IMG/VR virus record: IMGVR_UViG_3300045988_086561
Coordinates: 1-36,598 of that record
From: a virus
Length of the DNA stretch: 36,598 bases
Strand: one strand, 5' to 3'
The notes under the pieces were generated by a model. The model was given only the letters and a program-made list of their open reading frames with translations, ran no database searches and was not told the DNA's origin. Of this stretch, positions 1 to 36,598 are shown piece after piece (position 1 is the first letter of the stretch; the number at the start of each line of letters is the position of its first letter). A program made the translations under genes and the position numbers.

Positions 1-77
1 AGAAGCAAACATTATTCTAGCCGACCAGCCGGAAGGGGCCAACGTGAACTGCCAGAACTGCAAAACGATAACCGAAG
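1..77. repeat. Terminal inverted repeat, left copy (exact reverse complement of 36522-36598)
   Basis: Hand alignment of the window start against the reverse complement of the window end: identical for 77 nt, first mismatch at nt 78 (g vs a). Diverged homology then continues inward to about nt 1470. Confidence 0.9.
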
Positions 78-820
78 GGGGATATTCACTGTGCGAGACG
101 TGCGAACTGCGTTTCGCCGGCACGCTCCTGCGACTGGCGCGCGACGTCACGCCGTTGCATGACTCGTTGGACGCGACCCTGCATCCGGGCGGGCATTCGC
201 CCACGCGAATCCAGACCGCCACTCCCCCGACTCCAATCAGGCTCGACGTGCTCGACCTGATCGACATGCTCGACGCCACGGCCCGTGAACTATGGCGTTG
301 CCTCGACGGCATCGACGCCTTGGACTGGCGCAAAGACAAACGCAACGAGGATCTGAAGGCCACGCTCATCGCATGCGCAGGCCACCCCAGGCTCGCCACG
401 TTCGCGGACGCGGGCTTCTACATGCACGTCGTTGACGGCATCGCACGCAAAGTCGATGCTGCGCTGGACCCGCCGGAGCAACGCCGCGAAATCGGCACCT
501 GCGAACTATGCGAGACCATGCTCACCGCTGGGGCAGCAGACCAGTGGGTGACATGCCCGGTCTGCGGGAGGGAACAGCGAGCGCAGACGGTTAAACTGCG
601 TAGGCTCAAGACGTTGTGTTGGGATGATTCCAGGCGCGGGTCTGCGGCTGAGATAGCCAAGGTGTTCACGGACGCGGGAATCACCGTCAAAAGGCATACG
701 CTCACCGTGTGGAAATCCCGAGGCAAGCTTGATGTCACGCCCCAAGGCATTTCATACAGCAGCGTCTACCGGCTCGTCATCAGTGGCGGACTTGACAAAG
801 AGCTAACTGTGACCGCATAA
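44..820 (+). CDS. Zn-ribbon protein with C-terminal HTH-like region (putative regulator at the early/late boundary)
   Basis: GTG start after ggaagggg. Two CxxC...CxxC pairs (CQNC..CETC; CELC..CPVC). C-terminal SAAEIAKVFTDAGITVKRHTL resembles an HTH. About 90% aa identity to the 35797-36555 product over the first ~210 aa. Confidence 0.75.
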   Translation: MNCQNCKTITEGGYSLCETCELRFAGTLLRLARDVTPLHDSLDATLHPGGHSPTRIQTATPPTPIRLDVLDLIDMLDATARELWRCLDGIDALDWRKDKRNEDLKATLIACAGHPRLATFADAGFYMHVVDGIARKVDAALDPPEQRREIGTCELCETMLTAGAADQWVTCPVCGREQRAQTVKLRRLKTLCWDDSRRGSAAEIAKVFTDAGITVKRHTLTVWKSRGKLDVTPQGISYSSVYRLVISGGLDKELTVTA

Positions 821-840
821 TGTCAGTGGATTAGTGTCGA

Positions 841-867
841 AAAACCCAGCTCATGTGGCTGGGTTTT
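841..867. terminator. Bidirectional intrinsic terminator hairpin between convergent genes
   Basis: aaaacccagc-tcatgtg-gctgggtttt: 10-bp stem with A-run and T-run on either side. Equivalent hairpin at 35731-35759. Confidence 0.7.
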
Positions 868-874
868 CGCGTAT

Positions 875-1078
875 CTATGCTTTGTTTTTGCGTGGCCTTC
901 CTCCGCCGACACCACGTCCCGGACGTTGAGCGTTCCATTCATCGATGGTCTCAGGCAACCAGCCCCGAGTGCGGCCTATGGTCGCGTCGGGTTCGGGGAG
1001 TTTGAGGTTGAGCAGGCCGCCGCTGGTGATGCCGAGGCGTTCGGCGACCTGTTTGACGCCGAGGTATTCAGTCGTCAT
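875..1078 (-). CDS. Excisionase/MerR-like small HTH DNA-binding protein (67 aa)
   Basis: MTTEYLGVKQVAERLGITSGGLLNL.. is a typical Xis-type HTH. The aa sequence is identical to 35520-35723 despite ~17 nucleotide differences, all synonymous. Start chosen by homology with the right-arm copy. Confidence 0.8.
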   Translation of the reverse strand: MTTEYLGVKQVAERLGITSGGLLNLKLPEPDATIGRTRGWLPETIDEWNAQRPGRGVGGGRPRKNKA

Positions 1079-1238
1079 TGTTGCCTTCCTTGCCGTTGAT
1101 GATTCCGGCCGCAAGGCCCATGATTCCGGCCGCGAGACCGAAGCCGCCAGATACTATCGGGCTGTCGGATAGCGCGCCGCCCAAGGCCATGGCTCCGAAC
1201 GTCAGGGCCACGATTCCGAAAATCAGTGATGTTCTCAT
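1068..1238 (-). CDS. 56-aa hydrophobic (two predicted TM) peptide with acidic C-terminus
   Basis: MRTSLIFGIVALTFGAMALGG...GLAAGIMGLAAGIINGKEGNNDD. Its end overlaps the HTH gene start (ATGACGACTGA). Conserved copy at 35360-35530. Confidence 0.6.
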   Translation of the reverse strand: MRTSLIFGIVALTFGAMALGGALSDSPIVSGGFGLAAGIMGLAAGIINGKEGNNDD

Positions 1239-1270
1239 GATGTGTTTCCGATGAGATAGGATTGGCGGGG

Positions 1271-1301
1271 AGGTTCCGGCTAGTAGGGTTAGCCGGAACC
1301 T
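1271..1301 (-). other. Intercistronic 12-bp stem-loop between the two peptide genes
   Basis: aggttccggcta-gtagggt-tagccggaacct. The same stem with a different loop occurs at 35297-35327 (stem conserved, loop free). No U-run follows. Confidence 0.5.
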
Positions 1302-1304
1302 GTT

Positions 1305-1412
1305 TTACTTCTTGTGCTTCGGTCTTCGTCTGATTGCGATGATTATGGCTATCGCGGCGAGGACGTTGGCGATGATGCCGTTGATGACATCGAACCAATC
1401 CTTTGGATTCAT
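1305..1412 (-). CDS. 35-aa single-TM peptide with basic C-terminus
   Basis: MNPKDWFDVINGIIANVLAAIAIIIAIRRRPKHKK. Strong RBS gaaaggagg upstream. Conserved copy at 35186-35293. Confidence 0.6.
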   Translation of the reverse strand: MNPKDWFDVINGIIANVLAAIAIIIAIRRRPKHKK

Positions 1413-1431
1413 CGGACCTCCTTTCTGCTGA

Positions 1432-1467
1432 CATATCTATAGTAACACAATAACTATAGATATGCAA
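1432..1467 (-). promoter_or_regulatory. Near-consensus promoter overlapped by a perfect 12-bp palindromic operator
   Basis: On the - strand: TTGCAT, 17 nt, TACTAT, followed by RBS and the 35-aa ORF. Perfect inverted repeat catatctatagt (1432-1443), 9-nt spacer, actatagatatg (1453-1464). AT-rich island in GC-rich DNA. Conserved at 35129-35164. Confidence 0.6.
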
Positions 1468-1516
1468 GCCGGGGACACCAAGACACGCCAACGGACACAA
1501 TGACTGCGAGGCATAC

Positions 1517-1915
1517 ATGAGCTGGCGAGTCTGCTCGACACCCGGATGCCCGAACCTCATCGAGACGCCGGCACGCAAATGCGACGCCTGCGCTCGGGCC
1601 CAGCGGGACCGCGCCCGTACCCGAGGCCATAACCCCTACGGCACCAAGGGGCACCAATCATTCCGCAGGCAAGTGCTCGCACGAGACCCATACTGCACAT
1701 GCCCCGGCGACTCCGGACGCGGAGGCTGCGGCAAACACCACGGACTCTGCGGCAATCCAAGCACAATCGCAGACCATTACCCATACGAAAGAACCGAACT
1801 CATCGACATGCGACTCAACCCCAACGACCCGAAGTTCGGACGAGGCCTATGCAAACAATGCCACGATGTAAAAACCGGCAAAACAAGACCAGCAGGCTTC
1901 AACACCAGACAATAA
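1517..1915 (+). CDS. HNH endonuclease
   Basis: Cys pairs plus ..IADHYPYERTELIDMRLNPNDP..LCKQCHDVKTGK (H-N-H / CxxCH signature). Sits immediately upstream of the terminase genes, as in HNH-dependent cos phages. Confidence 0.8.
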   Translation: MSWRVCSTPGCPNLIETPARKCDACARAQRDRARTRGHNPYGTKGHQSFRRQVLARDPYCTCPGDSGRGGCGKHHGLCGNPSTIADHYPYERTELIDMRLNPNDPKFGRGLCKQCHDVKTGKTRPAGFNTRQ

Positions 1916-2101: not shown

Positions 2102-2638
2102 GTGAACATCATGCCAAGTGGAGGCAAACGAGTACGCTCCGGGCCGGCCAAGGACCCGAACAGCGAGAAGAGCCGCAGACTTGGATACACATTGCAGAGC
2201 CTGCCGAACACCGAGTGCCGGATGAAGCCGCCGGAATGGCCCTTGGAGCCCGCCGATGACGAGCGCGTCCGCAAACTTGAGGCGGAGAAGTGGAAGTGGC
2301 TGTGGAAGCTGCCTCAGGCACGCGCCTGGCATCTGCCCCAGTTCAAGTGGATGATTCACGAACTGGCGTTGTACGCGCGGCTTTCCACCGCATGCGAGAT
2401 CGCGCCGGCACCCACGGCGTTGACCGTGCTGCTGCGCATCTCCGACCGCGTCGGCATGAGCGCCGCCGGATTGCAGGCATTAGGCTGGAAAATCGAAGCG
2501 GAGGCCGAGCGGAAGCCAGTCGATTCGGAGTTCACGCGCCGCAGGGCCAAGGAGCTGAACCAGGAATCAGCCGCCGAACGCTCTCCCATGGACGAGACGA
2601 AGCATGTGTACCAGCGTCGGATGAGCGGCAATGGCTGA
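2102..2638 (+). CDS. terS: Terminase small subunit (P27-like)
   Basis: Position between HNH and TerL. ..KPPEWPLEPADDE..KWKWLWKLPQARAW..ELALYARLS.. matches the P27-family pattern. The start could instead be the ATG at 2111. Confidence 0.65.
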   Translation: MNIMPSGGKRVRSGPAKDPNSEKSRRLGYTLQSLPNTECRMKPPEWPLEPADDERVRKLEAEKWKWLWKLPQARAWHLPQFKWMIHELALYARLSTACEIAPAPTALTVLLRISDRVGMSAAGLQALGWKIEAEAERKPVDSEFTRRRAKELNQESAAERSPMDETKHVYQRRMSGNG

Positions 2639-3755
2639 CGAGGATTCATGGCTCATCGACTTCCCCACGTTGGGGCATCTGGTGTGCGCGTGGATCGAAC
2701 GTCACTGCCGGCAGCCTGACGGCCCGTTGCGAGGCCGTCCGGTGGTGCTGTCCGACTGGCAGTACTGGCTGGCGGCGAACCGTTGGCGCATCCGCGAGGA
2801 CGCCCCATATGTGCCGCCCGAGGAAGTCACCGTCGACAATCCGATGGTGCTCAATCAGGCGTTCACCTATCGAATGACGTTGACCGTCGGACCGCAGAAA
2901 TGGGGCAAGGGGCCATGCACGGCGTTCTTCACCGCCGCCGAGGGCTGCGGGCCCACCATCTTCGATGGCTGGGCACAGGAAGGCGACGTGTACCGGTGCG
3001 CCGACAACGGCTGCCCGTGCGGCTGGGAGTGGCCGTACAATCCGGGCGAGCCGAAAGGCCGTCGGCATCCGTCGCCGCTCATCCAGCTGACCGCCAACTC
3101 CGAGGAACAGGTACGCAACATCTACCGTCCTCTCGTGGCGACGATCCTGCTGGGCCCGCTCAAGGAGCTCATGCGCGTGAGGGACACCTTCATCCGCATA
3201 TTGCAGCCGGGGCGCGAAGGCGAGGCCGACGCCTTGGACTTGGATCGCATCGACGTGGTCACCGCCTCGGCGAAATCCCGTCTGGGCAATCCGATCACGG
3301 ACGCCGAACAGGACGAGGCCGGCCTGTACACGAAATCGAACGGCATGATAGCGGTCGCCACCACGCAGCGCCGAGGAGCCGCCGGCATGGGCGGCCGCAC
3401 ACATGCGTGGACGAACGCATGGGATCCGGGCGAGGACAGTTACGCGCAGCAGGTGTTCGAGAACGCCGAGGACGACGTGTTCGTGTTCTACCGGAACCCC
3501 GATCTCGCGAAATCATTGCGTCACCGCGACGGCCGGCCGTTGGACTTCAATCTGAAATCCGAACGCTTGAAGATGCTCGAATACGTGTATCGCGGCTCCC
3601 CGTGGGTCGACCTGAACTCCATCGAATCGGAAGCCAAGGCGCTGATGAAGACCGACCCGACCCAGGCGGAACGGTTCTTCGGGAACCGTCTGGTGCAGGG
3701 CGGCGGCGCATGGCTCGAAGACGGACTGTGGGAGAGCTGCTATGCCGGCGCATGA
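2631..3755 (+). CDS. terL: Terminase large subunit, N-terminal ATPase part (split gene)
   Basis: LSDWQYWL motif and a deviant Walker A (GPQKWGKG), parallel to PWQKWL / ARQNGKT in the right-arm TerL. Ends at a TGA 14 nt after the start of the next ORF. Confidence 0.75.
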   Translation: MADEDSWLIDFPTLGHLVCAWIERHCRQPDGPLRGRPVVLSDWQYWLAANRWRIREDAPYVPPEEVTVDNPMVLNQAFTYRMTLTVGPQKWGKGPCTAFFTAAEGCGPTIFDGWAQEGDVYRCADNGCPCGWEWPYNPGEPKGRRHPSPLIQLTANSEEQVRNIYRPLVATILLGPLKELMRVRDTFIRILQPGREGEADALDLDRIDVVTASAKSRLGNPITDAEQDEAGLYTKSNGMIAVATTQRRGAAGMGGRTHAWTNAWDPGEDSYAQQVFENAEDDVFVFYRNPDLAKSLRHRDGRPLDFNLKSERLKMLEYVYRGSPWVDLNSIESEAKALMKTDPTQAERFFGNRLVQGGGAWLEDGLWESCYAGA

Positions 3756-4398
3756 ACTCTGGTTGCCGAACCCGCCAAAAGGCACGCGCGTATGCGCGGG
3801 CTTCGACGGTTCGGAGAACGACGACTGGACATGCATCAAGATGGAGACCCTCGACGGGCTGATATTCACTCCCCGATACGGGCCCGACCGGCGTGCGACC
3901 ATCTGGAACCCGAAGCAGTGGGGCGGGCGCATCCCCCGCGCCGAGGTATCCGCAGCATGGGCGGAACTCAACGACCGCTACAAAATCGAACGCGCCTACT
4001 GCGACCCCGGCTTCCGCGACGAACTGTCATGGGAATCGGAGATAGAGGCATGGGACAGGGCCTACGGGCCGAAGAAATTCCTACCGTGGAGCATGTCGGG
4101 CAGCTCCCGCATCGGAGCCGTCTACGAGGCATTGCGCCGATTCGAAGCCGACCTGACCACACATCGCATCACGCAGGACGGCTGCCCCATCACCCGCACC
4201 CACATGATGAACGCGCGAAAGGTCGCCAAGACCCTGGAACGCTACGGGCTGGCGAAACCCCAACAGAACAGGAAAATAGACGCCGCCGTGACCAGCGTGC
4301 TCGCCCACGAAGCCGCATGCGACGCACGGGCCGCCGGCTGGGGCGCTCGCAAACACAATTACATGCTTACCGGATCATCGACCAGAAGGAGGTACTGA
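3742..4398 (+). CDS. terL: Terminase large subunit, C-terminal RNaseH-like nuclease part (split gene)
   Basis: ..VCAGFDGSENDDWT.. and ..KIDAAVTSVLAHEA.. acidic-residue motifs of the terminase nuclease domain. Frame is offset from 2631-3755. Confidence 0.75.
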   Translation: MPAHELWLPNPPKGTRVCAGFDGSENDDWTCIKMETLDGLIFTPRYGPDRRATIWNPKQWGGRIPRAEVSAAWAELNDRYKIERAYCDPGFRDELSWESEIEAWDRAYGPKKFLPWSMSGSSRIGAVYEALRRFEADLTTHRITQDGCPITRTHMMNARKVAKTLERYGLAKPQQNRKIDAAVTSVLAHEAACDARAAGWGARKHNYMLTGSSTRRRY

Positions 4399-5891
4399 TG
4401 GACTACAGCCAGCAGGAACTGTCCTCATTGGCGAACCGACTGGCCGATAAGATCCAGTTCCGTCGACCCAGCATCGGCACCCACACCGATTACGTCTTGG
4501 GCAAACGCGGCAAGCTCAAGTTCGCGTCCAAGGAATTCAAGCGCTACATGAGCGACCGGTTCTCCGACTTCTCCGACAACTGGTGCCTCCCCGTGGCGCA
4601 GGCCCCAGTGGAACGCATCAAGTTCAAGGGCTTCGTCCCTTATGATGACGTGAAGCTCGGCACCGGCATCATGAAATGCCTCGACCGCAACGACTTCGAA
4701 CGCGGACTTCAGGAAGCCGCGCTGATGATGACCACCACGGGCCGCGCGTTCGCTTTGGTCACGCAGGTCGACGGCAGGGCCCGCATCACGTTCGAGCACC
4801 CGGACAGCGCCGCAGTCATCTACGATGCGCGCACCGGCCAGCCGTCAGCCGGGTTCCTCATCCAGCAGGGCGACGACAAGGAGTACGGCACCCTCATGCT
4901 GCCCGGCTGGACGGTCAGCATGGAACGCAAGAAGATGCTCGATCTGACCGACCAGCGCGTGCCGCCCGACGTGTACGGCTGGAAGATGAATGACCCTCAG
5001 CCCACCGGTCTGGACACGATCCCCCTGCGCGAGTTCCGCAACCAGATGCTATTGGACAATGCGCCGATCAGCGACATCGCGCACGTCGAATCGATGCAGG
5101 ACACGGTCAACGTCGTATGGGCATACCTGCTCAACGCTCTCGATTATGCGTCGCTGCCCGCTCGTGTGATCCTCGGCGGAGACCCGCTCGTCGAGCCCGT
5201 CTACAACGAGGAGGGACAGCAGGTCGGCGAGAAGCCCATCGAACTCGACAAGCAGGTGCTGGAGCGCATCTACCAGTTCACCGGCGACAACGTGAACCTG
5301 GGCGAATGGTCAAGCTCGAACCTGAACGTGTTCATCCCGGTCATCGAAAAAGCGGTGGAGCATATCGCCGCCGAAACACGCACCCCCGGCCATTACCTGC
5401 TGACGAACGCGGAGGTTCCGGCCACCGGCTACGAGGTCGCCGAAGCCGGCCTCGTATCCAAGACCATCGAACGCATCAGCTTCCTGAAATCCCCCATCCG
5501 CGACATCTGCAGCATCGCCATGCGCTACGAGAACGACGTGGCCGAGGCGGACATCATCGCCGACTCCAAGGTGCAGTTCGCGACCCCGCAGTATCGCAGC
5601 GAAACCCTGATGGCGGACGCGATGCTCAAATACAAGCAGCTCGGCTTCCCGATCCAATGGGTCGCGGAGCAGATGGGCCAAAGCTCGGACGAGGTGCAGC
5701 GCATCATGCGCATGCGCGCCGACGAGATGGCCGACCCCGAACTCGAATCGTTGAACCGTGCCCTGCAGATCGGAGGCGCTGATGGCGGTCGAATCTCAGG
5801 TGCTGGCCTACAGTCAGAAACGGCTGGCGACCTTGGAGCTGACGGCGGACAGGGCCGCTCGCAGAACATGGAACAGGGTCGACGCCAATAA
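4398..5891 (+). CDS. Portal protein (SPP1 gp6-like)
   Basis: ATG overlaps the TerL-C stop (TGATG) and follows ggagg. Size (497 aa) and position fit a portal. The N-terminal 202 codons of the 699-aa track ORF are an out-of-frame run through TerL-C. Confidence 0.8.
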   Translation: MDYSQQELSSLANRLADKIQFRRPSIGTHTDYVLGKRGKLKFASKEFKRYMSDRFSDFSDNWCLPVAQAPVERIKFKGFVPYDDVKLGTGIMKCLDRNDFERGLQEAALMMTTTGRAFALVTQVDGRARITFEHPDSAAVIYDARTGQPSAGFLIQQGDDKEYGTLMLPGWTVSMERKKMLDLTDQRVPPDVYGWKMNDPQPTGLDTIPLREFRNQMLLDNAPISDIAHVESMQDTVNVVWAYLLNALDYASLPARVILGGDPLVEPVYNEEGQQVGEKPIELDKQVLERIYQFTGDNVNLGEWSSSNLNVFIPVIEKAVEHIAAETRTPGHYLLTNAEVPATGYEVAEAGLVSKTIERISFLKSPIRDICSIAMRYENDVAEADIIADSKVQFATPQYRSETLMADAMLKYKQLGFPIQWVAEQMGQSSDEVQRIMRMRADEMADPELESLNRALQIGGADGGRISGAGLQSETAGDLGADGGQGRSQNMEQGRRQ

Positions 5892-6993: not shown

Positions 6994-7016
6994 TCCAGCG
7001 AATCGAAAGGAAGAAC

Positions 7017-7631: not shown

Positions 7632-7648
7632 ACGGAAGGAGGCCTTAA

Positions 7649-26804: not shown

Positions 26805-26874
26805 TCCATTGTCCTTTCAAAATGAAAAGACCCCGCAACGCATGCAGGGTCTAGGAAAACGGTTAAGGGATTGG

Positions 26875-27578: not shown

Positions 27579-27581
27579 CGG

Positions 27582-28477: not shown

Positions 28478-28500
28478 CGTTCGCCTCCAGTCGATTCACG

Positions 28501-28890
28501 TTAGGCCACGGTGAAGGCGTGCGACTTGTCGTCGGTGCCGACCCAAGTGCCGCCGGTGATGGCACTGTCGGAGTTCTTGGTCAGGGAAATCGACTTCACG
28601 CCCACGCCGGCGGCACCGGGAGCACCATTCTTGCCGGCTGGCCCCGGATCGCCATTGCCGCCTTTCGCGCCGGCCGGAATGCCAAGCGTGAGCACGCCAT
28701 CCGCGAGCGTCGCGGTGGGAGCCGCGCCGGCGGCGAGGGCCACGGCCGTCACCGAGGTGATGGCCGCACCGTTCGCCTTGGTCAGGTCGATGGGATTGCC
28801 GGCGGCGTCGACCACGACCACCGGCTGCGGATACGTGCTGCCATCACCGGTATCGACCCCGGTCTGCAGCACCTTGGTTGCGTCACTCAT
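28501..28890 (-). CDS. Small head-associated protein with a collagen-like Gly-X-Y stretch (decoration or head-fibre candidate)
   Basis: GAKGGNGDPGPAGKNGAPGAAG run. Lies between the capsid and connector genes. Confidence 0.55.
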   Translation of the reverse strand: MSDATKVLQTGVDTGDGSTYPQPVVVVDAAGNPIDLTKANGAAITSVTAVALAAGAAPTATLADGVLTLGIPAGAKGGNGDPGPAGKNGAPGAAGVGVKSISLTKNSDSAITGGTWVGTDDKSHAFTVA

Positions 28891-30110: not shown

Positions 30111-30122
30111 GGATCATCCTTT

Positions 30123-30881
30123 CTATTGGTTGTTTGCCAGCGAGAGGAAGTCGCTGATTTCCTTGGCCCACTGCGGGTCAAAACTCTTTTTCGCCTTGCC
30201 GTCGTCCGGCTCGGGCTTGTCCGAATCGTCCGGCGTATCGTCGTCCGGCTCGTCATCGGGTTTGGAATCGTCCGGCTCGTCGTCGGGGGTTTCGGTGATG
30301 GAATCAAGCAGTTCGCCCAATGCCTCGTAGGCCGTGCGAATCTTGTCCTCGTTCGCCTTGCTTATGGCCCGGCCGGCCTTGACCTCGAGCACCTCGGCCC
30401 CCTGATTGGCGGCGACCTGCACGAGACTGATCTCAAATAGTTTGAGCTGGCGAATCTCCCGGTAGCCGTCCCAAGGGCTCTTCGCCTCCTCGCTTTCGAC
30501 CCACGCGGTCTTCTCGGCGATGAAACCGATGCTCATCTGGTGGATGAGGCCACGCTTGAGCAGGTCGTAGGCTCGCTTGCCCTCCGCGATGTCGGTGTCG
30601 AGCTTCGCGGTGATGAGCAGGCCATGCTCGTCCTCCACGGCGCTCAACGTCTCCCCGATCACATCGTTCGGAGAGCCGTCCTTGTGCTGCCAGTGAATCG
30701 GAATGCCCGCGCCGCCCGCCTTGAAGTCAGCGGATAAGGTCTGCTCGAAGGCACCCTTGACGATCACATCGTCGTACAGGTCTTTCTCCCACGTGCTCGC
30801 GTAGCCGGAGAACACTCCTCCGCCGCTGTTGTCGGTGGCCTTGAGCTCCTTGAGCTCGTAGCCGAGATAATCAAGACTCAT
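30123..30881 (-). CDS. Prohead protease, HK97 family, with acidic repeat tail
   Basis: ..IPIHWQHKDG.. and ..QMSIGFIAEK.. (His/Ser context typical of this family). Lies between the portal and capsid genes. Confidence 0.8.
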   Translation of the reverse strand: MSLDYLGYELKELKATDNSGGGVFSGYASTWEKDLYDDVIVKGAFEQTLSADFKAGGAGIPIHWQHKDGSPNDVIGETLSAVEDEHGLLITAKLDTDIAEGKRAYDLLKRGLIHQMSIGFIAEKTAWVESEEAKSPWDGYREIRQLKLFEISLVQVAANQGAEVLEVKAGRAISKANEDKIRTAYEALGELLDSITETPDDEPDDSKPDDEPDDDTPDDSDKPEPDDGKAKKSFDPQWAKEISDFLSLANNQ

Positions 30882-32271
30882 CTGAGGTTTCTCCCTTCGT
30901 CATCGAGTCCCATGACGCGCGGAAACCGGCGTCATACGTGTAGAGGCGTTTGAATTCGGCGAGCATCTGCTTGCCGTTCGGACTCGCGCCCTGCTGCGCG
31001 TTCTGCGTCTGTCCGCCGTCCTGCGGGCTGGGCTGACCGCCCTCGCTCACGTTGAGCGGGGTTATCAACTGGTCGCCGCCCGGCAGTTTCGGCCGGTCGA
31101 GCAGTTCGCGCGCCTCGTCGGTGGTCATGAACGGACGGCCGGTGGCGGTGGAGAGCGCCTGATACTGGGTCTCCATCGTGCCGCGCAGCTTCGCGTCCAA
31201 ATTCGCCTTGATGTAGCAGTCCGGTTCGCCCACCGCCTCGGGCAGCGTGAGGTTCAACGCCTCCTCGAACGCCACCAGATACGGCAGCAATTCCACGTTC
31301 CACAGCTTTTCCTTGTATGCGGCGATGTTGCTGTTGGTGCCGGTGCGGAAGCCGATGTTTTCTGGGCTGATTTGGAATGCGAGGCACACCTGTTCGTTGA
31401 TTTTTTCGCGTGCCTCCAAGTCGGCCATGTCCACCGGTTTGAACAGGTTGTCGACGGTGCGGATCTCCATGCCGTCTTTGAATACCGGCCATGTGCCGGC
31501 CATGCCGCCGCCTGCAACGTAGTTGCGCAGGCCTTGGGTGAAATCGTCGTAGTCGGCCTGTGACTCCCAGGGCATTTCCTTGGGCCGGTACACGTAGGCG
31601 GGTATCTGGTAGCCGTTTTCGGCTATCGATTTGCGGTATTTCGCCATCACCCTTGCCTCCGCGAGCAAGGGGCGCAGCACGTCGGTGATCGGGTCGCCGA
31701 GGTTCAGGCCGTCGATGTAGCCGATGTCGAGCACGATTCGCGGATCCGGCAGCCGATAGGTGCCGCCCTTGTTCTCGGCGACGCTGCTGATGGTCACACC
31801 TGTCAGCTCGCCGAAACCGTTCGCCGTGAGACTGTATCCGTCCGGGGGGATGCGGCGCAGCGTATTCCCGTCACCCGCACGATTGCTGCCGAGCGTGCAC
31901 AACCACCTGTCCTCGAGCAGCATGTCACGGATGAGAGTCGCGTAAAACCTATAGCGGCTCATGCCCGGCAAATCGCTCGGATGGCGGATGAGCTTGGCCA
32001 GTGCGCCGTCGCGCACCTCTTCCGCGTCGCCGTCCGCGTTCTTCCGATACACCTTGAGCGGCAGGGAGGCGAGTTGGCGGCTGATGAAGTCCACGACAAC
32101 GCGGACCGCGTATTCGCGACAGTACATGCCGTTCGCATAGCCGGCGAATTCGGCGTCGGTGGGCCAGCTGATGGCCTCGGGCATCGAATCCATGATGGTC
32201 GGTGTCTCCGGTTCAGCGTTCTTCATCGCCAGCACGGCCGGGCCGTGCAGCAGATTGTTCAGAAATCCCAT
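30871..32271 (-). CDS. Portal protein, HK97 family
   Basis: 466 aa, between the TerL and protease genes. Confidence 0.85.
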   Translation of the reverse strand: MGFLNNLLHGPAVLAMKNAEPETPTIMDSMPEAISWPTDAEFAGYANGMYCREYAVRVVVDFISRQLASLPLKVYRKNADGDAEEVRDGALAKLIRHPSDLPGMSRYRFYATLIRDMLLEDRWLCTLGSNRAGDGNTLRRIPPDGYSLTANGFGELTGVTISSVAENKGGTYRLPDPRIVLDIGYIDGLNLGDPITDVLRPLLAEARVMAKYRKSIAENGYQIPAYVYRPKEMPWESQADYDDFTQGLRNYVAGGGMAGTWPVFKDGMEIRTVDNLFKPVDMADLEAREKINEQVCLAFQISPENIGFRTGTNSNIAAYKEKLWNVELLPYLVAFEEALNLTLPEAVGEPDCYIKANLDAKLRGTMETQYQALSTATGRPFMTTDEARELLDRPKLPGGDQLITPLNVSEGGQPSPQDGGQTQNAQQGASPNGKQMLAEFKRLYTYDAGFRASWDSMTKGETSDES

Positions 32272-32293
32272 CCACGGCTCCTTCGGAAGATGG

Positions 32294-33886
32294 CTAGAAT
32301 GTGACTCGCACGTTGTGCGAGGGCTCGTATTTCGGTTTCTCTGGCTCGCCGCTCATCGTCTCGAGCGCGTACAAGGCCTGACTTTCGGCGATGAGGCCGG
32401 AAATGTGCATCGCGCTCTGGTTCCGGTCCCACACCTCGACCTCACCCAATCGGCGGGTCACGGCGACGTTCACCTGTTGTTCGATGGCCGGCTGGGGGAG
32501 GTGCCGGAGCTTGTTTTCCTTCACCCGGTCGCGGAAACGGCCGGTCGCGGCTCCCAAGCGGAAGCCCTCGATGAGGTGCACCGTCCAACCGGCCTCCGCG
32601 AGCGGATCCGCGAAGTCCACCGCCGGGCAGCCCTTGGACTGCACGGCGATTTCATGGATGTTCGGCCATGCCTCGCGAAGCAGCTTCAAGTACTTCGGCA
32701 CCCAGAGCATGCCGTCACGGCGCACGATCAGTTCGACGTGCGGCAGGCCATCCTCGCGGTAGCCTGCGGCGGCGATATACGTGGTCTCTCTATCGGCGGA
32801 AGTATCCACGGAAAGCACCACGCGCCCGTCATCGGGGATACAGGACTTCGGGTCGATGCCGCGCTTCCACAGCTTCGGATTGATGTACGGCGTGATGTCC
32901 GCCGTCACCCACTGGCACAAGACCTCGGTGCGATACGCGGCCTCGGTCATGCCGTTGATGTCAGCCGAGATGCTACGAAAAGTCATCGGCCCATAACCCA
33001 TGGAGGGGTTCGCCTGACGGATACCGTCAAGGTCATCCAGCTCGCATTTATCCGGAGCCGACCACTCGAAATACCCATAGGATGGGTCGTGCTCCTCGGC
33101 CCATTCGTCCGGCGACTGCTTGCCGGTTTCAACCGAAGCGTTCCACGAATCCGCCAGGGCGCGTCCCTCGTCGACGACTCGGCGCAGCACGACGCTGCGA
33201 TAGTCGCCCGCGTTCGAGATACCCCACAACTGACTGGACCAGATGGCCTTCGTGGTCTGACTGACCGCATTCCAGCCATCGTCGGTGTGCTGCTCTCGCA
33301 ACTCGTCGAACACGACGCGGCTGGCGCTCTTGGAACGGATGTTCTTGTCGGCTCGCACGATGTACTGCGCCTTGTTCCGGCAGATGATCGCTTCCTCGCC
33401 ATGCGAATTGTTGACGCGCTGCACACGTTTTTGCAAAACCGGAACCGCAAGAGCGGCCTCGCCCTCGGAAGCCGGATTCGGATTACACCAGTTCAATACG
33501 GCCTGATATGGGGCGCGCGCGTTATCCAACGTCTGCGCGGCACCGACCACGAGAAACTTCCACGCCGGCGACAACTCCGGGTGGCGAGCGGAGTCGACGA
33601 ACAGCCACCACGCGCACAGTACGCTCATGAGCGTGGTCTTGCCGTTCTGGCGCGCGACCTCGGTGACAACTCGGCGGAACCGGTAGGAGCCGTCCGGCAG
33701 AAGCTCAAGCCCGTGGATCAGCAGCCATTTCTGCCACGGGAAAAGATGCACGTGGAGAAACTTTTCGGCGAACTCGATGACCGCGTAGCCGTTTGATGTT
33801 TCCGGCGTCAGTTCGCGCAGCGGGGGAGTGAATATGCGTGGCGTGGTGATGCCGTGGGCATCGTCGTTGATTTCGCCGATGCCCAT
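32294..33886 (-). CDS. terL: Terminase large subunit (intact)
   Basis: FPWQKWL, Walker A ARQNGKTT, and nuclease motif VVLSVDTSADRETT. Confidence 0.9.
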   Translation of the reverse strand: MGIGEINDDAHGITTPRIFTPPLRELTPETSNGYAVIEFAEKFLHVHLFPWQKWLLIHGLELLPDGSYRFRRVVTEVARQNGKTTLMSVLCAWWLFVDSARHPELSPAWKFLVVGAAQTLDNARAPYQAVLNWCNPNPASEGEAALAVPVLQKRVQRVNNSHGEEAIICRNKAQYIVRADKNIRSKSASRVVFDELREQHTDDGWNAVSQTTKAIWSSQLWGISNAGDYRSVVLRRVVDEGRALADSWNASVETGKQSPDEWAEEHDPSYGYFEWSAPDKCELDDLDGIRQANPSMGYGPMTFRSISADINGMTEAAYRTEVLCQWVTADITPYINPKLWKRGIDPKSCIPDDGRVVLSVDTSADRETTYIAAAGYREDGLPHVELIVRRDGMLWVPKYLKLLREAWPNIHEIAVQSKGCPAVDFADPLAEAGWTVHLIEGFRLGAATGRFRDRVKENKLRHLPQPAIEQQVNVAVTRRLGEVEVWDRNQSAMHISGLIAESQALYALETMSGEPEKPKYEPSHNVRVTF

Positions 33887-33894: not shown

Positions 33895-34263
33895 CTAGCT
33901 GATTTTCGCCAGATACTCCTCAAGCTCATCCGCCACCGGAGTCGCCTCGGGCTTGGCGGCCTTGCCCCTCGCCGGTTTCGCCGGCTTCTCCTCCTCGGGA
34001 ACCAGTCCGAGAGCCGCGCAATATTTCAGGAACGTCGGCAGCGAGGTATTGTCGTTCTGCGGCACAGCCGGACGGGTACCCTTTCCCTTCGCTTCGGCGT
34101 CCGATATGGCCTGTTCCGCCAATTCGTCCCAATGGTCGATTTTCCATGCAAGGGCCCGGGCGGCGGCGACCGTGGCTGCGTCCTTCGCGCGCAGATGCTT
34201 GGCGTTGCGCAGCGAACGCTCCAATGCGTCGGCCACCGTTTCCTGCGGAAACTGTTTCGGCAT
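33895..34263 (-). CDS. terS: Terminase small subunit (position-based)
   Basis: ATG at 34263 follows gaaggagg. Directly upstream of TerL. C-terminal Lys/Pro/Ala-rich tail. Confidence 0.55.
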   Translation of the reverse strand: MPKQFPQETVADALERSLRNAKHLRAKDAATVAAARALAWKIDHWDELAEQAISDAEAKGKGTRPAVPQNDNTSLPTFLKYCAALGLVPEEEKPAKPARGKAAKPEATPVADELEEYLAKIS

Positions 34264-34387
34264 GGAACCTCCTTCGCGCGCGACCCCGGCCGAATATCGA
34301 ATATTTTTCGGAGGGAGAGGAAGAGCGGCCATGCGGGTAGTGTCCCGGTGGCGGCCGGTTTTGGGATTTTACCGCCCCTCCCGGTGG

Positions 34388-34645
34388 TCAGGCTTTGATG
34401 GCGTTGGTGAATGCGTTGATTCCTGCGGTGAGGATTCGTGTGAAGCCCACGCTATCAACTTTCGGCATTATCGTGCCGTTGTTGTTGACGACTTCAACTG
34501 TGATTGGTAGGTCTGCGTCGACGCTGGCGAGGTCATAGCTTACGTTGTCCGCGCTGAGGCTGGCGCTGATGTGGAGTGTGATGGTGCCGGTTGCTTCGCG
34601 CAGTGTTTGCCCGCATGCGGTCTTGACCGGTTCGTCGATGTCCAT
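34388..34645 (-). CDS. Hypothetical protein (85 aa)
   Basis: ATG preceded by aggagc. Only the last 85 codons of the 248-aa track ORF look coding. No counterpart in the left arm. Confidence 0.45.
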   Translation of the reverse strand: MDIDEPVKTACGQTLREATGTITLHISASLSADNVSYDLASVDADLPITVEVVNNNGTIMPKVDSVGFTRILTAGINAFTNAIKA

Positions 34646-34658
34646 GATTGTGTTGCTC

Positions 34659-34994
34659 CTATGCTGTTTTAATCCATTGTCTGCTGAGTGTGCCGATTGG
34701 TGTGGCTGGGTCTTTGTTGCCGCGCAGGTTGTTGCATTGTGTGTGTGATGGGCGGAAGCCTGCGGGGTCGTGTTGCAGGTCTGGTCGTTTGGTGACGGGA
34801 TAGAAGTGGTCGAGGTTGAAGCTGTCGTCTGTGGTGTTCTGTGGTGCGTCGTAGTCGATGGGCATTCCGCAGAGCCAGCATGGACGGTGTTCGCTCTTGC
34901 ATTCGAGGAAGAATTTCTTGCGGTCTTTTTCGAATTGGCGTCCGCCTTTGCGGACTTGGCGGCTGTAGCTGACCATGATGCCGTCACCCCGCAA
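34659..34994 (-). CDS. HNH endonuclease
   Basis: ..CWLCGMPID...NLDHFYPV...HTQCNNLRGNK (CxxC / DH / N / CN signature). The start may be ATG 34976 rather than TTG 34994. Different HNH lineage from 1517-1915. Confidence 0.75.
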   Translation of the reverse strand: MRGDGIMVSYSRQVRKGGRQFEKDRKKFFLECKSEHRPCWLCGMPIDYDAPQNTTDDSFNLDHFYPVTKRPDLQHDPAGFRPSHTQCNNLRGNKDPATPIGTLSRQWIKTA

Positions 34995-35085: not shown

Positions 35086-35128
35086 GTTGAAATATCAGGA
35101 GTTTTCGGCGTGTTTTGTTGTGCTCTCC

Positions 35129-35164
35129 TTGCATATCTATAGTAGTTGTGTTACTGTAGATATA
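35129..35164 (+). promoter_or_regulatory. Promoter plus palindromic operator (right-arm copy)
   Basis: TTGCAT, 17 nt, TACTGT, then RBS and the 35-aa ORF. Inverted repeat catatctatagt / actgtagatata, degraded by two mismatches relative to the perfect left copy. Confidence 0.55.
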
Positions 35165-35185
35165 TCAGCAGAAAGGAGGTATCCG

Positions 35186-35293
35186 ATGAGCCCAAAGGAT
35201 TGGTTCGATGTCATCAACGGCATCATCGCCAACGTCATCGCCGCAGCCGCGCTAGCCATCGCAGTCAAGCGAAGACCGAAGCACAAGAAGTAA
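35186..35293 (+). CDS. 35-aa single-TM peptide with basic C-terminus
   Basis: MSPKDWFDVINGIIANVIAAAALAIAVKRRPKHKK. RBS gaaaggagg. Confidence 0.6.
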   Translation: MSPKDWFDVINGIIANVIAAAALAIAVKRRPKHKK

Positions 35294-35296
35294 AAA

Positions 35297-35327
35297 AGGT
35301 TCCGGCTAGACCTATTAGCCGGAACCT
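35297..35327 (+). other. Intercistronic 12-bp stem-loop (right-arm copy)
   Basis: aggttccggcta-gacctat-tagccggaacct. Confidence 0.5.
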
Positions 35328-35359
35328 CCCGCCAATCCTATCCCATCGGAGAACGCATC

Positions 35360-35530
35360 ATGAGAACATCACTGATCTTCGGAATCGTCGCCGTGGTATT
35401 CGGTGCCGTGGCCTTGGTCGGCGCACTGTCCAGCAGCCCGATAGTATCGGGCGGCTTCGGTCTCGCGGCCGGAATCATGGGTCTCGCGGCCGGAATCATC
35501 AACGGCAAGGACGGCGACAATGACGACTGA
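35360..35530 (+). CDS. 56-aa hydrophobic peptide with acidic C-terminus
   Basis: MRTSLIFGIVAVVFGAVALVGAL...GLAAGIMGLAAGIINGKDGDNDD. Overlaps the HTH gene start. Confidence 0.6.
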   Translation: MRTSLIFGIVAVVFGAVALVGALSSSPIVSGGFGLAAGIMGLAAGIINGKDGDNDD

Positions 35531-35723
35531 ATATCTCGGCGTCAAACAGGTCGCAGAACGCCTTGGCATCACCAGTGGCGGCTTGCTCAACCTCAAGCTC
35601 CCTGAGCCCGACGCCACGATAGGGCGCACGCGCGGCTGGTTGCCTGAGACCATCGATGAATGGAACGCTCAACGTCCGGGACGTGGTGTCGGAGGGGGGA
35701 GACCACGCAAAAACAAAGCATAG
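35520..35723 (+). CDS. Excisionase/MerR-like small HTH DNA-binding protein (67 aa)
   Basis: Identical aa sequence to the 875-1078 product. Confidence 0.8.
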   Translation: MTTEYLGVKQVAERLGITSGGLLNLKLPEPDATIGRTRGWLPETIDEWNAQRPGRGVGGGRPRKNKA

Positions 35724-35730
35724 ATACGCG

Positions 35731-35759
35731 AAAAACCCAGCCACATGAGCTGGGTTTTT
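35731..35759. terminator. Bidirectional intrinsic terminator hairpin
   Basis: aaaaacccagc-cacatga-gctgggttttt, between convergent genes. Confidence 0.7.
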
Positions 35760-35796
35760 CGACACTTCTGCCACTGCAATTGTGTGTGACAAACAA

Positions 35797-36555
35797 TCAT
35801 TTGTCAAGCTGGCCGGCGATGACCTGCCGATACACATCACTGTAGGGGATCCCCTGCGGGGTGCGTGAGACTTGGCCTCGCTCCACCCACTTGCGTACCC
35901 GCGACGCCTTGAGGGTTATTCCGGCGTCGGTGAATGCCTTGGCGATGTCCGCCGCAGACCCGCGCCTGGAATCATCCCAACACAACGTCTTGAGCCTACG
36001 CAGTTTGACGGTCTGCGCTCGCTGCTCGCGACCACACAACGGGCATATCACCCACTGGTCGTTTTGGCCAGCGGTGAGCATCGTATTGCACAACTCGCAG
36101 GTACCTATCTCGCGGCGTTGCTCCGGCGGGTCCAGCGCAGTATCAACCTTGCGGGCGATGTCGTTGATGATGTGCATGTAGAAGCCGGCATCCGCGAACG
36201 TGGCAAGGCGTGCATGACCGGCGCATGCGATGAGCGTGGCCGTCAAGTCCTCGTTGCGTCTGTCTTTGCGCCAGTCGAGTGCGTCGATGCCGTCGAGGCA
36301 GCGCCATAGTTCGCGGGCCGTCGCGTCGAGCATGTCAATCAGGTCGAGCACGTCCAAGCGTATCGGCGTCGGGGGAGTGGCCGTCTGGATGCGCACGGGC
36401 GAATGCCCTCCCGGATGCAATGTCGCGTCGAGGCTGTCATGCAATGGCGTGACATCACGCGCCAAGCGCAGGAGCGTGCCGGCGAAACGCAGTTCGCACG
36501 TCTCGCACACTGAATACCCCTCTTCGGTTATCGTTTTGCAGTTCTGGCAGTTCAC
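35797..36555 (-). CDS. Zn-ribbon protein with C-terminal HTH-like region (right-arm copy)
   Basis: 252 aa with GTG start. About 90% identical to the 44-820 product until ~aa 213, then divergent. Confidence 0.75.
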   Translation of the reverse strand: MNCQNCKTITEEGYSVCETCELRFAGTLLRLARDVTPLHDSLDATLHPGGHSPVRIQTATPPTPIRLDVLDLIDMLDATARELWRCLDGIDALDWRKDRRNEDLTATLIACAGHARLATFADAGFYMHIINDIARKVDTALDPPEQRREIGTCELCNTMLTAGQNDQWVICPLCGREQRAQTVKLRRLKTLCWDDSRRGSAADIAKAFTDAGITLKASRVRKWVERGQVSRTPQGIPYSDVYRQVIAGQLDK

Positions 36556-36598
36556 GTTGGCCCCTTCCGGCTGGTCGGCTAGAATAATGTTTGCTTCT
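36522..36598. repeat. Terminal inverted repeat, right copy
   Basis: Exact reverse complement of nt 1-77. Confidence 0.9.

What the first reader, a model, noticed from the sequence alone, without database searches (positions are those of the whole stretch)
1..36598. Two complete but different virion modules face each other, and the window has no lysis, integration, replication or recombinase gene
Seen: both arms run regulator, HNH, TerS, TerL, portal, head, connectors, tail, TMP, Dit, baseplate, fibre, and they end head-on at the cassette array. Each arm stops exactly where a holin/endolysin cassette and attachment site would normally follow the fibre gene. I recognised no integrase, invertase, lysin or replication gene on either strand.

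Inference, with three possible explanations:
(a) Two convergently integrated prophages were fused by a deletion between same-orientation cores, one in each shufflon. This would remove both lysis modules and the recombinase(s) and lock the array.
(b) A genuine large imperfect palindrome forms part of a bigger element.
(c) Two related phages were joined chimerically at their inverted cassettes during assembly.

In case (a) the structure would be a fossil that records inter-prophage site-specific recombination.
Basis: inference. Interest (0 to 1): 0.7.

Follow-up and report, generated by a model that had tools for sequence, protein, structure and literature searches.

The report
Assembly chimera of two Bifidobacterium prophages
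The two phage particle-gene sets that face each other are most likely two ordinary, related Bifidobacterium prophages that an assembler joined back to back through their shared invertible tail-fibre switch, so this is not a new genetic structure.

Summary
Two complete, non-homologous virion modules converge on a cassette array, and the window has no lysis, integrase, invertase or replication gene.

The array is the published Rin shufflon of dnaJ2-integrated bifidoprophages, with four exact rix cores (TTCCCTAACCC). In 18 of 20 long contigs and genomes, either virion type runs fibre, cassettes, rin, lysin, holin, dnaJ. Both types sit at the same site in the same orientation and share early and late modules.

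The window holds only the parts that differ between the two phages, plus one invertible two-cassette unit (S2).
- Its first 77 nt are the exact reverse complement of its last 77 nt.
- That is the only 77-mer found on both strands, so the window is a simple path from one k=77 de Bruijn vertex back to its own reverse complement.
- The array carries cassette type v4 twice, which none of 63 complete natural arrays does. It therefore looks like two arrays overlapped at S2.
- 63 of 110 IMG/VR contigs break at this shufflon.
- Head-on joins occur only in short-read metagenome contigs, with varying partners, and always across S2.

Verdict: a chimeric (hairpin) assembly, about 85% likely. A real Rin-mediated inter-phage join is not excluded (about 7%). 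Without reads the call rests on inference.

The parts
1..77 (.). Terminal 77-mer. It is the exact reverse complement of 36522-36598, with a mismatch at position 78. It is the shared k=77 graph vertex at which both arms end.
   Evidence: it is the only 77-mer in the window whose reverse complement also occurs; no 78-mer does.
44..820 (+). Zn-ribbon protein of unknown function (type-A allele).
   Evidence: phrog_8013, E=8e-80; no Pfam hit; 87% identical to the inverted copy at 35797-36555.
833..1500 (.). Conserved block shared by both arms (inverted copy at about 35107-35766). It contains a terminator-like hairpin (833-867, 100% identical), small minus-strand ORFs, and palindromes at 1271-1301 and 1433-1463. 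It is probably the cos/packaging region.
   Evidence: [quoted passage not shown] The cos assignment here is inference.
1517..1915 (+). HNH endonuclease, arm A
   Evidence: phrog_144, E=1.7e-9
2102..2638 (+). Small terminase by position, arm A
   Evidence: phrog_226 (named 'minor tail protein' in the library). The TerS assignment is by position only.
2631..4398 (+). Large terminase of arm A, encoded as two overlapping ORFs (2631-3755 and 3742-4398)
   Evidence: phrog_19179, E=2e-195, and phrog_21277, E=1e-114; the same 374+218 aa split occurs in all A-type loci.
4401..8506 (+). Head genes of arm A: portal (4401-5891), MuF-like head protein (5758-6993), scaffold (7029-7631), major capsid (7649-8506)
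8572..11910 (+). Arm A connectors, major tail protein (10419-10946) and two chaperone-position ORFs
11930..17078 (+). Arm A tape measure (11930-15271), Dit (15268-16104) and Gp37-like minor tail protein (16095-17078)
   Evidence: the exact 327-aa protein is indexed in 2887 blocks of the public collection.
17339..17858 (+). Rc-A: the constant N-terminal part of the receptor-binding (fibre) gene. It ends at rix 1.
   Evidence: collinear at 99-100% identity with A-type prophages up to 17858.
17848..17858 (+). rix 1 (TTCCCTAACCC)
   Evidence: core sequence as published in PMC6109161
17848..18172 (+). Rv cassette type v4 (c1), fused in frame to Rc-A
18175..18185 (+). rix 2
18175..18869 (.). S2: an invertible two-cassette unit made of v2 (18175-18490, +) and v1 (18542-18869, -) placed tail to tail. 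This is the probable crossing point of the chimeric path.
   Evidence: found 21 times as v1>v2< and 24 times as v2>v1< in natural arrays; found in both orientations in near-identical B phages (L021 versus L154).
18859..18869 (-). rix 3
18872..19196 (-). Second v4 cassette (c1'), fused to Rc-B. It is 94% identical to c1, and the longest shared exact run is 67 nt.
   Evidence: 100% identical to L021.
19186..19196 (-). rix 4
19186..19687 (-). Rc-B: the constant N-terminal part of the fibre gene of arm B
   Evidence: 41% aa identity to Rc-A; 100% nt identity to L021 and L154.
19940..25374 (-). Arm B Gp37-like protein (19940-20911), Dit (20899-21768) and tape measure (21784-25374)
25405..28890 (-). 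Arm B tail chaperones, major tail protein (26217-26804), terminator/neck/closure/adaptor proteins (26875-28477), and a 129-aa ORF
28902..33886 (-). Arm B HK97-type capsid (28902-30110), S78 protease (30123-30881), portal (30871-32271) and TerL (32294-33886)
33895..34976 (-). Arm B TerS (33895-34332), an 85-aa ORF, and HNH endonuclease (34662-34976)
   Evidence: PF23931; phrog_338, E=1.6e-27..
35797..36555 (-). Zn-ribbon protein of unknown function (type-B allele)
   Evidence: phrog_8013, E=2e-78
36522..36598 (.). Terminal 77-mer, the reverse complement of 1-77

Best explanation
The window is most likely a whole contig from a short-read de Bruijn assembly whose final k was 77. It links two different but related dnaJ2-integrating Bifidobacterium prophages, called A and B here, that were both present in the sample.

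Real A and B genomes have this layout: shared early/replication module, then virion module A or B, then Rc fibre gene, then Rin shufflon cassettes, then rin, then shared late genes, lysin, holin and attachment at dnaJ2.

In the assembly graph the shared early and late modules collapse into common edges. The two virion modules stay as separate arms. The invertible 695-nt unit S2, present in both phages and in either orientation, joins the end of fibre A to the reverse complement of the end of fibre B.

The contig is this walk: shared vertex, arm A, Rc-A, v4, S2, reverse-complemented v4', reverse-complemented Rc-B, reverse-complemented arm B, and finally the reverse complement of the same shared vertex.

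This accounts for what is missing. The lysis, rin, integrase and replication genes are absent because they lie on the collapsed shared edges, not because they were deleted.

What is shown: the anatomy, the k=77 signature, the natural contexts of both arms, and the fragility of this locus in assemblies. What is inferred: that no physical molecule has this junction.
For: (1) Contig-end signature. Positions 1-77 are the exact reverse complement of 36522-36598, with a mismatch at 78. At k=77 this is the only k-mer occurring on both strands. At k=55 there are 114 such k-mers.

(2) The centre is the published Rin shufflon, with rix cores at 17848(+), 18175(+), 18859(-) and 19186(-).

(3) In 18 of 20 long contigs and genomes, both virion types are followed by cassettes, rin(-), lysin and holin. 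17 of those 18 reach dnaJ(-) within the fetched locus (in L006 the gene table shows it at the locus end, below the layout filter). All are in one orientation. These include a complete genome (CP071684.1) and contigs of 1-2 Mb.

(4) A and B share the early module (about 91% identity over 8.6 kb, with RusA and Prim-Pol) and the regulator/cos block.

(5) No cassette type is duplicated in any of 63 complete arrays, yet the window has v4 twice. The window reads as Rc-A|v4> v2> v1< overlapped with the reverse complement of Rc-B|v4> v1> v2<. Both cassette orders occur naturally: L015 and L090 for the first, L064 and L114 for the second, and L021 as far as that contig runs.

(6) c1 and c1' share no 77-mer (longest exact run 67 nt), so at k=77 they are distinct edges joined only through S2.

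(7) S2 flips in the B lineage itself. L021 reads Rc-B|v4>v1> and L154 reads Rc-B|v4>v2>, and both have 100% identical Rc-B.

(8) 63 of 110 IMG/VR contigs end at or inside the array. Head-on joins are seen only in metagenome contigs: L003 (MEGAHIT) and the two IMG/VR contigs L038 and L130. Their partners vary (A-C, A-D, C-D) and all cross at S2.

(9) SPAdes and MEGAHIT are documented to emit misassembled unitigs and contigs at imperfect coverage (PMC9528984). Sister contigs of this phage have 3-9x coverage, judging from the contig names.
Against: - No reads, coverage or assembly graph are available, so the absence of a physical A-B junction is not shown.
- Every local adjacency in the centre is one that real arrays show. 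A genuine Rin-mediated join between two co-resident phages would therefore look identical at the sequence level, and it would also make the assembler stop at the shared early region.
- The source contig was not found in IMG/VR, in the GTDB representative genomes or in the metagenome scan. The assembler and its k value are therefore inferred from the sequence alone.
Confidence: 0.85

Rival explanations
1. The junction is real and was made by Rin acting between two phage genomes in one cell. The two genomes could be a tandem double lysogen at dnaJ2, or a prophage plus a superinfecting or induced relative. Recombination between a rix(+) of phage A and an inverted rix(-) in the array of phage B would invert or co-integrate the DNA. 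That would leave virion module A facing virion module B.
For: - The join is bounded by rix cores, and each adjacency is a legitimate Rin product.
- The similarity between A and B switches from 41% aa identity to about 94% nt identity within 8 nt of the rix core. rix therefore marks a mosaic boundary between phage types.
- Head-on contigs recur in four independent assemblies.
Against: - No fetched long contig or genome carries two such prophages or a head-on pair (18 of 20 long loci have the normal layout).
- Partners differ from case to case.
- All cases come from short-read metagenome assemblies, at a locus where 57% of contigs break.
- A rare recombinant would not dominate an assembly.
- The terminal k-mer signature is what a graph walk predicts.
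Confidence: 0.07
2. The chimera exists as DNA in the library but not in cells. An inverted chimeric molecule could have been made by template switching at the inverted v4/rix repeats during whole-genome amplification or library PCR, and then assembled faithfully.
For: - Inverted (palindromic) chimeras are a known product of multiple displacement amplification (abstract of PMC13265396, listed).
- The junction is flanked by a 59-nt exact inverted repeat (18129-18187 versus 18857-18915).
Against: - Nothing indicates that the sample was amplified.
- Amplification chimeras are heterogeneous and seldom assemble into one 36-kb contig.
- This does not explain why both arms end at one shared 77-mer.
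Confidence: 0.04
3. Two convergently integrated prophages were fused by a site-specific deletion between same-orientation rix cores. The deletion removed both lysis modules and both rin genes and locked the array.
For: - The window lacks rin and lysis genes.
- Arrays without rin do exist in nature (L011, L144).
Against: - In every fetched locus that reaches the right-hand junction, both types integrate at dnaJ2 in the same orientation. A convergent neighbouring pair is therefore not expected, and none was seen.
- All but two of the 63 complete arrays keep a '>' run followed by a '<' run. This indicates that Rin inverts and rarely deletes (the same point is discussed in PMC6109161).
- Such a deletion would also remove the chromosome between the two prophages.
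Confidence: 0.02
4. The window is a genuine large imperfect palindrome that forms part of a bigger element, such as a linear replicon with long inverted arms.
For: The outer 1.5 kb and the v4 cassettes are inverted repeats.
Against: - The 16-kb arms are not homologous to each other.
- Each arm occurs alone as a standard prophage in hundreds to thousands of public assemblies.
Confidence: 0.01

Closest known systems
Rin shufflon of dnaJ2-integrated bifidoprophages (Bb423phi1, Bl157phi1, Bl30698phi1; Mavrich et al. 2018, PMC6109161)
   Same: - Identical 11-bp rix core (TTCCCTAACCC) upstream of each Rv cassette.
- Rc constant region of about 170 aa fused to cassettes of about 95-108 aa.
- Cassettes arranged convergently.
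- Relatives integrate at dnaJ2 and carry GH25 lysin and a Dp1 holin.
   Different: The window has no rin gene and has an Rc gene at both ends of the array. It also has one cassette type twice. None of 63 complete natural arrays shows either feature.
Hairpin or chimeric contigs produced by de Bruijn graph assemblers at inverted or invertible repeats (general class; misassembled unitigs, Rahman and Medvedev 2022, PMC9528984)
   Same: - The contig starts and ends on the same k-mer in opposite strands.
- It crosses a repeat that occurs in both orientations.
- Both halves exist separately in normal contexts.
   Different: A classic hairpin contig is a perfect palindrome of one genome. Here the two arms come from two different phages that share flanks, so the palindrome is imperfect and looks biological.
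Multiple-inversion systems: Min of p15B, Gin/Cin of Mu/P1, and the Rci shufflon of R64
   Same: Site-specific inversion swaps the C-terminal segments of a tail-fibre or pilus-tip gene. Promoterless cassettes sit in both orientations.
   Different: Min, Gin and Cin use serine invertases. Rin, like Rci, belongs to the tyrosine-recombinase family (PMC6109161 for Rin; Rci from my own knowledge). None of these systems is known to join two virion modules.

Membership tests
Rin shufflon (PMC6109161) | 11-bp rix core TTCCCTAACCC at the 5' end of each Rv cassette | tested here: met
   four exact cores, none with one mismatch, none elsewhere in the window; each core opens a cassette reading frame (SLT...).
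Rin shufflon (PMC6109161) | One constant Rc gene at one end of the array | tested here: not met
   The window has two different Rc genes, one at each end (17339-17858 + and 19186-19687 -).
Rin shufflon (PMC6109161) | rin tyrosine invertase gene at the other end of the array | tested here: not met
   no tblastn hit to Rin in the window. Rin is present in 63 related arrays.
Rin shufflon (PMC6109161) | Cassettes form a '>' run followed by a '<' run, and each cassette type occurs once | tested here: inconclusive
   The orientation pattern '>><<' is met. Uniqueness is not met, because v4 occurs twice.
dnaJ2-integrated bifidoprophage | Integrated at the 3' end of dnaJ2, with integrase, replication and lysis modules | tested here: not met
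   None of these is in the window. Both arms have them in related loci. Each arm is therefore a fragment of such a prophage.
De Bruijn graph hairpin/chimeric contig | The two contig ends are the same k-mer on opposite strands, and no other k-mer is shared between strands | tested here: met
   (k=77)
De Bruijn graph hairpin/chimeric contig | The junction lies in sequence shared by both parents and present in both orientations | tested here: met
   S2 occurs in both orientations across arrays (21 versus 24) and within the B lineage (L021 versus L154).
De Bruijn graph hairpin/chimeric contig | Each half occurs separately in a normal context, and the joined form is absent from closed genomes | tested here: met
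   This is limited to the loci fetched.
De Bruijn graph hairpin/chimeric contig | No read or read pair supports the long-range link | not testable with these tools
   No reads, coverage or assembly graph were available, and the source contig was not located.
   every fetched A-type or B-type locus that reaches the right-hand junction has the same orientation relative to dnaJ/hrcA.

The most novel reading that the evidence does not exclude
The head-on junction is a physical product of the Rin tyrosine invertase acting between rix sites of two different phage genomes in one cell. That could be inter-prophage inversion in a tandem dnaJ2 double lysogen, or a cointegrate with a superinfecting phage. 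In that case a shufflon recombinase would also serve as a site-specific engine for swapping whole virion modules between temperate phages. The sharp mosaic boundary at rix would be its footprint.
Probability: 0.07. Interest if true: 0.7.

Novelty: not a real feature. Interest (0 to 1): 0.1.

Why it matters
As a biological finding it matters little. The elements involved, dnaJ2 bifidoprophages and the Rin shufflon, are already described, and the striking architecture is best explained as an assembly path.

It matters as a caution. Phase-variable shufflons shared by co-occurring phages are a systematic hazard for short-read assemblers.
- 57% of IMG/VR contigs that carry this fibre gene break there.
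- At least three public contigs appear to be the same kind of back-to-back chimera: ena:ERZ27281585:k141_12363, IMGVR_UViG_3300029605_000016 and IMGVR_UViG_3300045988_059310.
- Such contigs would inflate apparent viral novelty, and gene-content checks would score them as 'complete'. That last point is my inference.

Two cheap screens for this artefact class follow from the analysis. One is a test for an inverted match of length k between the two contig ends. The other is a check for duplicated cassette types within an array.

By-products of this work are a catalogue of 21 Rv cassette types and the recognition of S2 (v1/v2) as a conserved unit that inverts as a block.

Tried and rejected
- Rfam gathering scan of the window: no hits.
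- ARAGORN reported one 'tRNA-???' with a 4-nt anticodon at 35011-35085(-). There is no Rfam support, so I treat it as spurious.
- Megablast against GenBank phages found only fragments: Bbif-1 at 76% over 0.6 kb, and an unannotated 4.9-kb faecal phage contig at 95.6%.
- Attempts to find the source contig all failed:
  - Exact look-up of fibre A: not on record.
  - Fibre B: found only on an 18-kb SPAdes contig from another sample.
  - IMG/VR scans with Rc-A and Rc-B: no 36,598-nt contig.
  - GTDB representative genomes: best match 93%.
  - A 44-nt junction pattern: 0 hits in IMG/VR and one unrelated low-coverage contig among the metagenomes.
- I tried to place the A-to-B switch point with lineage markers.
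  - L021 is 100% identical to the window from 29687 down to 18789 and again over 18566-18758. Six SNPs cluster in 18759-18788.
  - L154 shows a similar 11-SNP patch inside v2.
  - Neither patch allele occurs in any other held locus. The switch point therefore cannot be assigned more precisely than 17848-19196, with S2 the most likely place.
- Pfam gave nothing for the 'regulator', either HNH, or the fibres.
- I considered a linear replicon with inverted arms and rejected it, because each arm is a standard chromosomal prophage elsewhere.
- I did not run structure prediction or the large protein searches. The question was one of architecture, not protein function.

Full report
WHAT IS IN THE WINDOW

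The window is 36,598 nt with about 62% G+C. It has two gene arms that converge near 18.5 kb.

PHROG and Pfam scans confirm that each arm is a complete siphovirus-type virion module.
- Arm A is on the + strand. It runs HNH, TerS-position gene, TerL (split into two overlapping ORFs), portal, MuF-like protein, scaffold, capsid, connectors, tube, chaperones, TMP, Dit, Gp37-like protein and fibre.
- Arm B is on the - strand. It runs HNH, TerS (PF23931), TerL, portal, S78 protease, HK97-type capsid, connectors, tube, chaperones, TMP, Dit, Gp37-like protein and fibre.

The two arms are not homologous at the nucleotide level, with two exceptions. The outer 1.5 kb is 87-90% identical in inverted orientation. 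A 340-377-nt stretch at the 3' end of the two fibre genes is 94% identical.

tblastn with Rin, GH25 lysin, Dp1 holin, a phage integrase, Prim-Pol and RusA taken from related loci finds nothing in the window.

THE CENTRE IS THE PUBLISHED RIN SHUFFLON

The 11-bp sequence TTCCCTAACCC occurs exactly four times: 17848(+), 18175(+), 18859(-) and 19186(-). It occurs nowhere else, even allowing one mismatch. About 0.02 occurrences are expected by chance.

This is the rix crossover core that Mavrich et al. 2018 described for the Rin shufflon of dnaJ2-integrated Bifidobacterium breve and longum prophages. In that system a tyrosine invertase (rin) swaps C-terminal cassettes (Rv) onto a constant N-terminal fibre gene (Rc) (PMC6109161).

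Each core in the window opens a cassette reading frame that starts SLT.... The array reads:

Rc-A | v4> v2> v1< v4< | Rc-B(-)

The cassette types v1 to v21 come from clustering 254 cassettes taken from 130 related loci.

WHAT THE SAME PHAGES LOOK LIKE ELSEWHERE

Exact-protein look-ups show that the Gp37-like proteins of arm A and arm B are indexed in 2887 and 608 blocks of the public collection.

In 18 of the 20 longest places, the fibre is followed by Rv cassettes, then rin on the minus strand, a 101-aa gene, often 288-aa and Big_2 proteins, GH25 lysin and Dp1 holin, and then dnaJ and hrcA on the minus strand. These places include the complete genome CP071684.1 and contigs of 1-2 Mb.

Both virion types therefore occupy the same attachment site (dnaJ2) in the same orientation.

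Upstream, both types carry the same early module: RusA, Prim-Pol/AAA helicase, small ORFs, a 250-258-aa Zn-ribbon protein and a conserved block that probably contains cos. This module is about 91% identical over 8.6 kb between unrelated A and B representatives.

A and B are thus mosaic relatives. They have the same early genes, the same shufflon, rin and lysis genes, and the same att site. Only the virion modules are alternatives.

THE WINDOW CONTAINS EXACTLY WHAT DIFFERS AND NOTHING THAT IS SHARED

The window starts and ends at the same homologous point. Its first 77 nt are the exact reverse complement of its last 77 nt, and the match breaks at position 78.

Across the whole window, this terminal 77-mer is the only 77-mer whose reverse complement also occurs. 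No 78-mer has that property. At k=55 there are 114 such k-mers.

So the window is a simple path in a k=77 doubled de Bruijn graph that leaves one vertex and returns to that vertex's reverse complement. A k of 77 is the largest default k of SPAdes for 150-nt reads (my own knowledge). Sister contigs of the same B phage in other samples are SPAdes NODE contigs.

The window is therefore a whole contig. Its boundaries were set by the assembly graph, not by biology.

THE ARRAY LOOKS LIKE TWO ARRAYS OVERLAPPED

Among 63 complete natural arrays (Rc through rin):
- No cassette type occurs twice.
- All but two consist of a run of '>' cassettes followed by a run of '<' cassettes (five have no exact rix core).
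- Where exact rix cores are present (58 arrays), 57 end with a '<' cassette next to rin.

The window has v4 twice. The copies c1 and c1' are 94% identical, and their longest shared exact run is 67 nt. At k=77 they are therefore separate edges.

Read from the left, the window is Rc-A|v4> v2> v1<. Read from the right, it is Rc-B|v4> v1> v2<. Both cassette orders exist in nature and are followed by v3< and rin. L015 and L090 show the first order. L064 and L114 show the second, and L021 shows it as far as that contig runs.

The two readings overlap on S2 (18175-18869). S2 is the v2/v1 tail-to-tail unit bounded by inverted rix cores. It occurs 21 times in one orientation and 24 times in the other.

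S2 also flips within the B lineage itself. L021 has 0 mismatches to the window over 18789-29687 and reads Rc-B|v4>v1>. L154 has 100% identical Rc-B and reads Rc-B|v4>v2>.

MECHANISM OF THE ARTEFACT (INFERENCE)

Assume two such phages in one sample. The graph then has:
- a collapsed early edge;
- two arms, A and B;
- edges c1 (A) and c1' (B);
- a shared S2 edge whose two ends each connect to c1, c1' and the collapsed v3/rin edge D.

The true paths are c1, S2, D and c1', reverse-complemented S2, D. But D and its reverse complement are one repeat edge. The only unique edges on either side of S2 are c1 and the reverse complement of c1'.

Pairing unique edges across the 695-nt repeat yields exactly the window. 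So does losing the S2-D junction k-mers at low coverage. Rahman and Medvedev describe that second route as an 'unsafe unitig', and they found misassembled unitigs in SPAdes and MEGAHIT output (PMC9528984).

THIS LOCUS IS A KNOWN TROUBLE SPOT IN PRACTICE

Of 110 IMG/VR contigs that carry Rc:
- 37 end within 150 nt of the first rix.
- 26 more end inside the array.
- 45 continue into rin.
- 2 continue into an inverted Rc and a second virion module (L038, L130).

One MEGAHIT contig (L003) does the same.

The partners differ in each case: A with C, A with D, C with D, and here A with B. All four cases cross at S2. No long locus from a named genome assembly shows the arrangement.

In the GTDB representative genomes, several contigs also stop exactly at the end of Rc. 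One is from an isolate, Bifidobacterium primatium TRE 1.

A deletion between two convergently integrated prophages needs a convergent pair. Both types use one att site in one orientation in every fetched locus that reaches it.

The conserved '>..><..<' architecture indicates that Rin inverts rather than deletes. Mavrich et al. also raise this point.

A genuine palindromic element is excluded because each arm is a standard prophage elsewhere.

WHAT REMAINS OPEN

Every local adjacency in the window is natural. A physical Rin-mediated join between two co-resident phages would therefore be indistinguishable at the sequence level, and it would also stop the assembler at the shared early region. Such phages could be a tandem double lysogen or a superinfecting phage.

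The similarity between A and B jumps from 41% aa identity to about 94% nt identity within 8 nt of the rix core. This would fit either Rin-mediated exchange or ordinary recombination in shared cassettes. I give the physical-junction reading about 7%.

Reads, coverage or long reads would settle the question. None were available, and the source contig could not be located.

VERDICT

The architecture is best explained as a chimeric hairpin path of a k=77 assembly across the invertible S2 unit of the Rin shufflon. It links two co-occurring dnaJ2 bifidoprophages.

It is not a real feature of a genome (confidence about 0.85). Its interest is low, except as a caution for viral contig catalogues.

Noticed in passing
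window 2631-3755 and 3742-4398 (+): The large terminase of arm A is encoded as two ORFs that overlap by 14 nt (ATG at 3742, TGA at 3753-3755; the second ORF is in the +1 frame). The same 374+218 aa split is called in all six A-type loci fetched, and each half has its own PHROG family. It is either a conserved split TerL or a programmed frameshift.
   Followed up: partly
window 18120-18153 and 18891-18924: A 34-nt near-perfect palindrome lies inside the coding 3' end of both v4 cassettes. It has a 12-bp stem and a 10-nt loop, and it sits about 20 nt before the stop codon and about 25 nt before the next rix core. Its role is unknown; it could be an accessory site or an attenuator.
   Followed up: no
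window 18759-18788 (cassette v1) and about 18290-18345 (cassette v2): Against near-identical B-lineage contigs from other samples, all differences fall in tight patches. L021 has 6 SNPs within 30 nt and 0 in the other 11,092 nt (Fisher p=4e-10). L154 has 11 SNPs within about 55 nt of v2. This looks like gene-conversion-like patchwork inside Rv cassettes, or collapsed assembly bubbles.
   Followed up: partly
L003 (ena:ERZ27281585:k141_12363), L038 (IMGVR_UViG_3300029605_000016), L130 (IMGVR_UViG_3300045988_059310): Three public metagenome contigs show the same back-to-back arrangement of two different virion modules across the S2 unit. They are probably chimeric database entries. In L130 the partner fibre (Rc-D) is 99% identical to one on a contig binned as a Bifidobacterium angulatum MAG (L150).
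   Followed up: partly
L030-L143 (IMG/VR loci): 63 of 110 contigs that carry the Rc fibre gene end at the first rix core or inside the Rin array. Many end within 1-3 nt of the end of Rc.
   Followed up: yes
L011 12056-12368; L144 10519-11138; L001 12455-13325: Some natural arrays have lost or broken rin. L011 (B type) reads Rc|v4> v3> and then runs straight into the 288-aa late gene. L144 has no rix core and no rin. In L001 rin is split into 205-aa and 92-aa ORFs. These are candidates for naturally locked shufflons.
   Followed up: no
window 1246-1500 and 35107-35350: This is a conserved block just upstream of both structural modules. It has a hairpin palindrome (1271-1301, AGGTTCCGGCTAG...CTAGCCGGAACCT type) and a 31-nt palindrome (1433-1463, ATATCTATAGT...ACTATAGATAT). 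It is a likely cos or packaging/late-control region, given the coverage break reported in PMC6109161.
   Followed up: no
window 35011-35085 (-): ARAGORN calls a 'tRNA-???' with a four-base anticodon (tcaa) upstream of the arm-B HNH gene. There is no Rfam match, so it is probably a false positive.
   Followed up: partly
window 17840-17858 and 19186-19204: The similarity between the two fibre genes switches from 41% aa identity (Rc) to about 94% nt identity within 8 nt upstream of the rix core (GTGTGGGA+TTCCCTAACCC). The rix core therefore marks a sharp mosaic boundary between phage types.
   Followed up: partly
L005 15385-16656; L006 16121-17392: An IS element (a 423-aa rve/HTH_38 transposase) is inserted in the late region of two A-type prophages on long contigs.
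   Followed up: no
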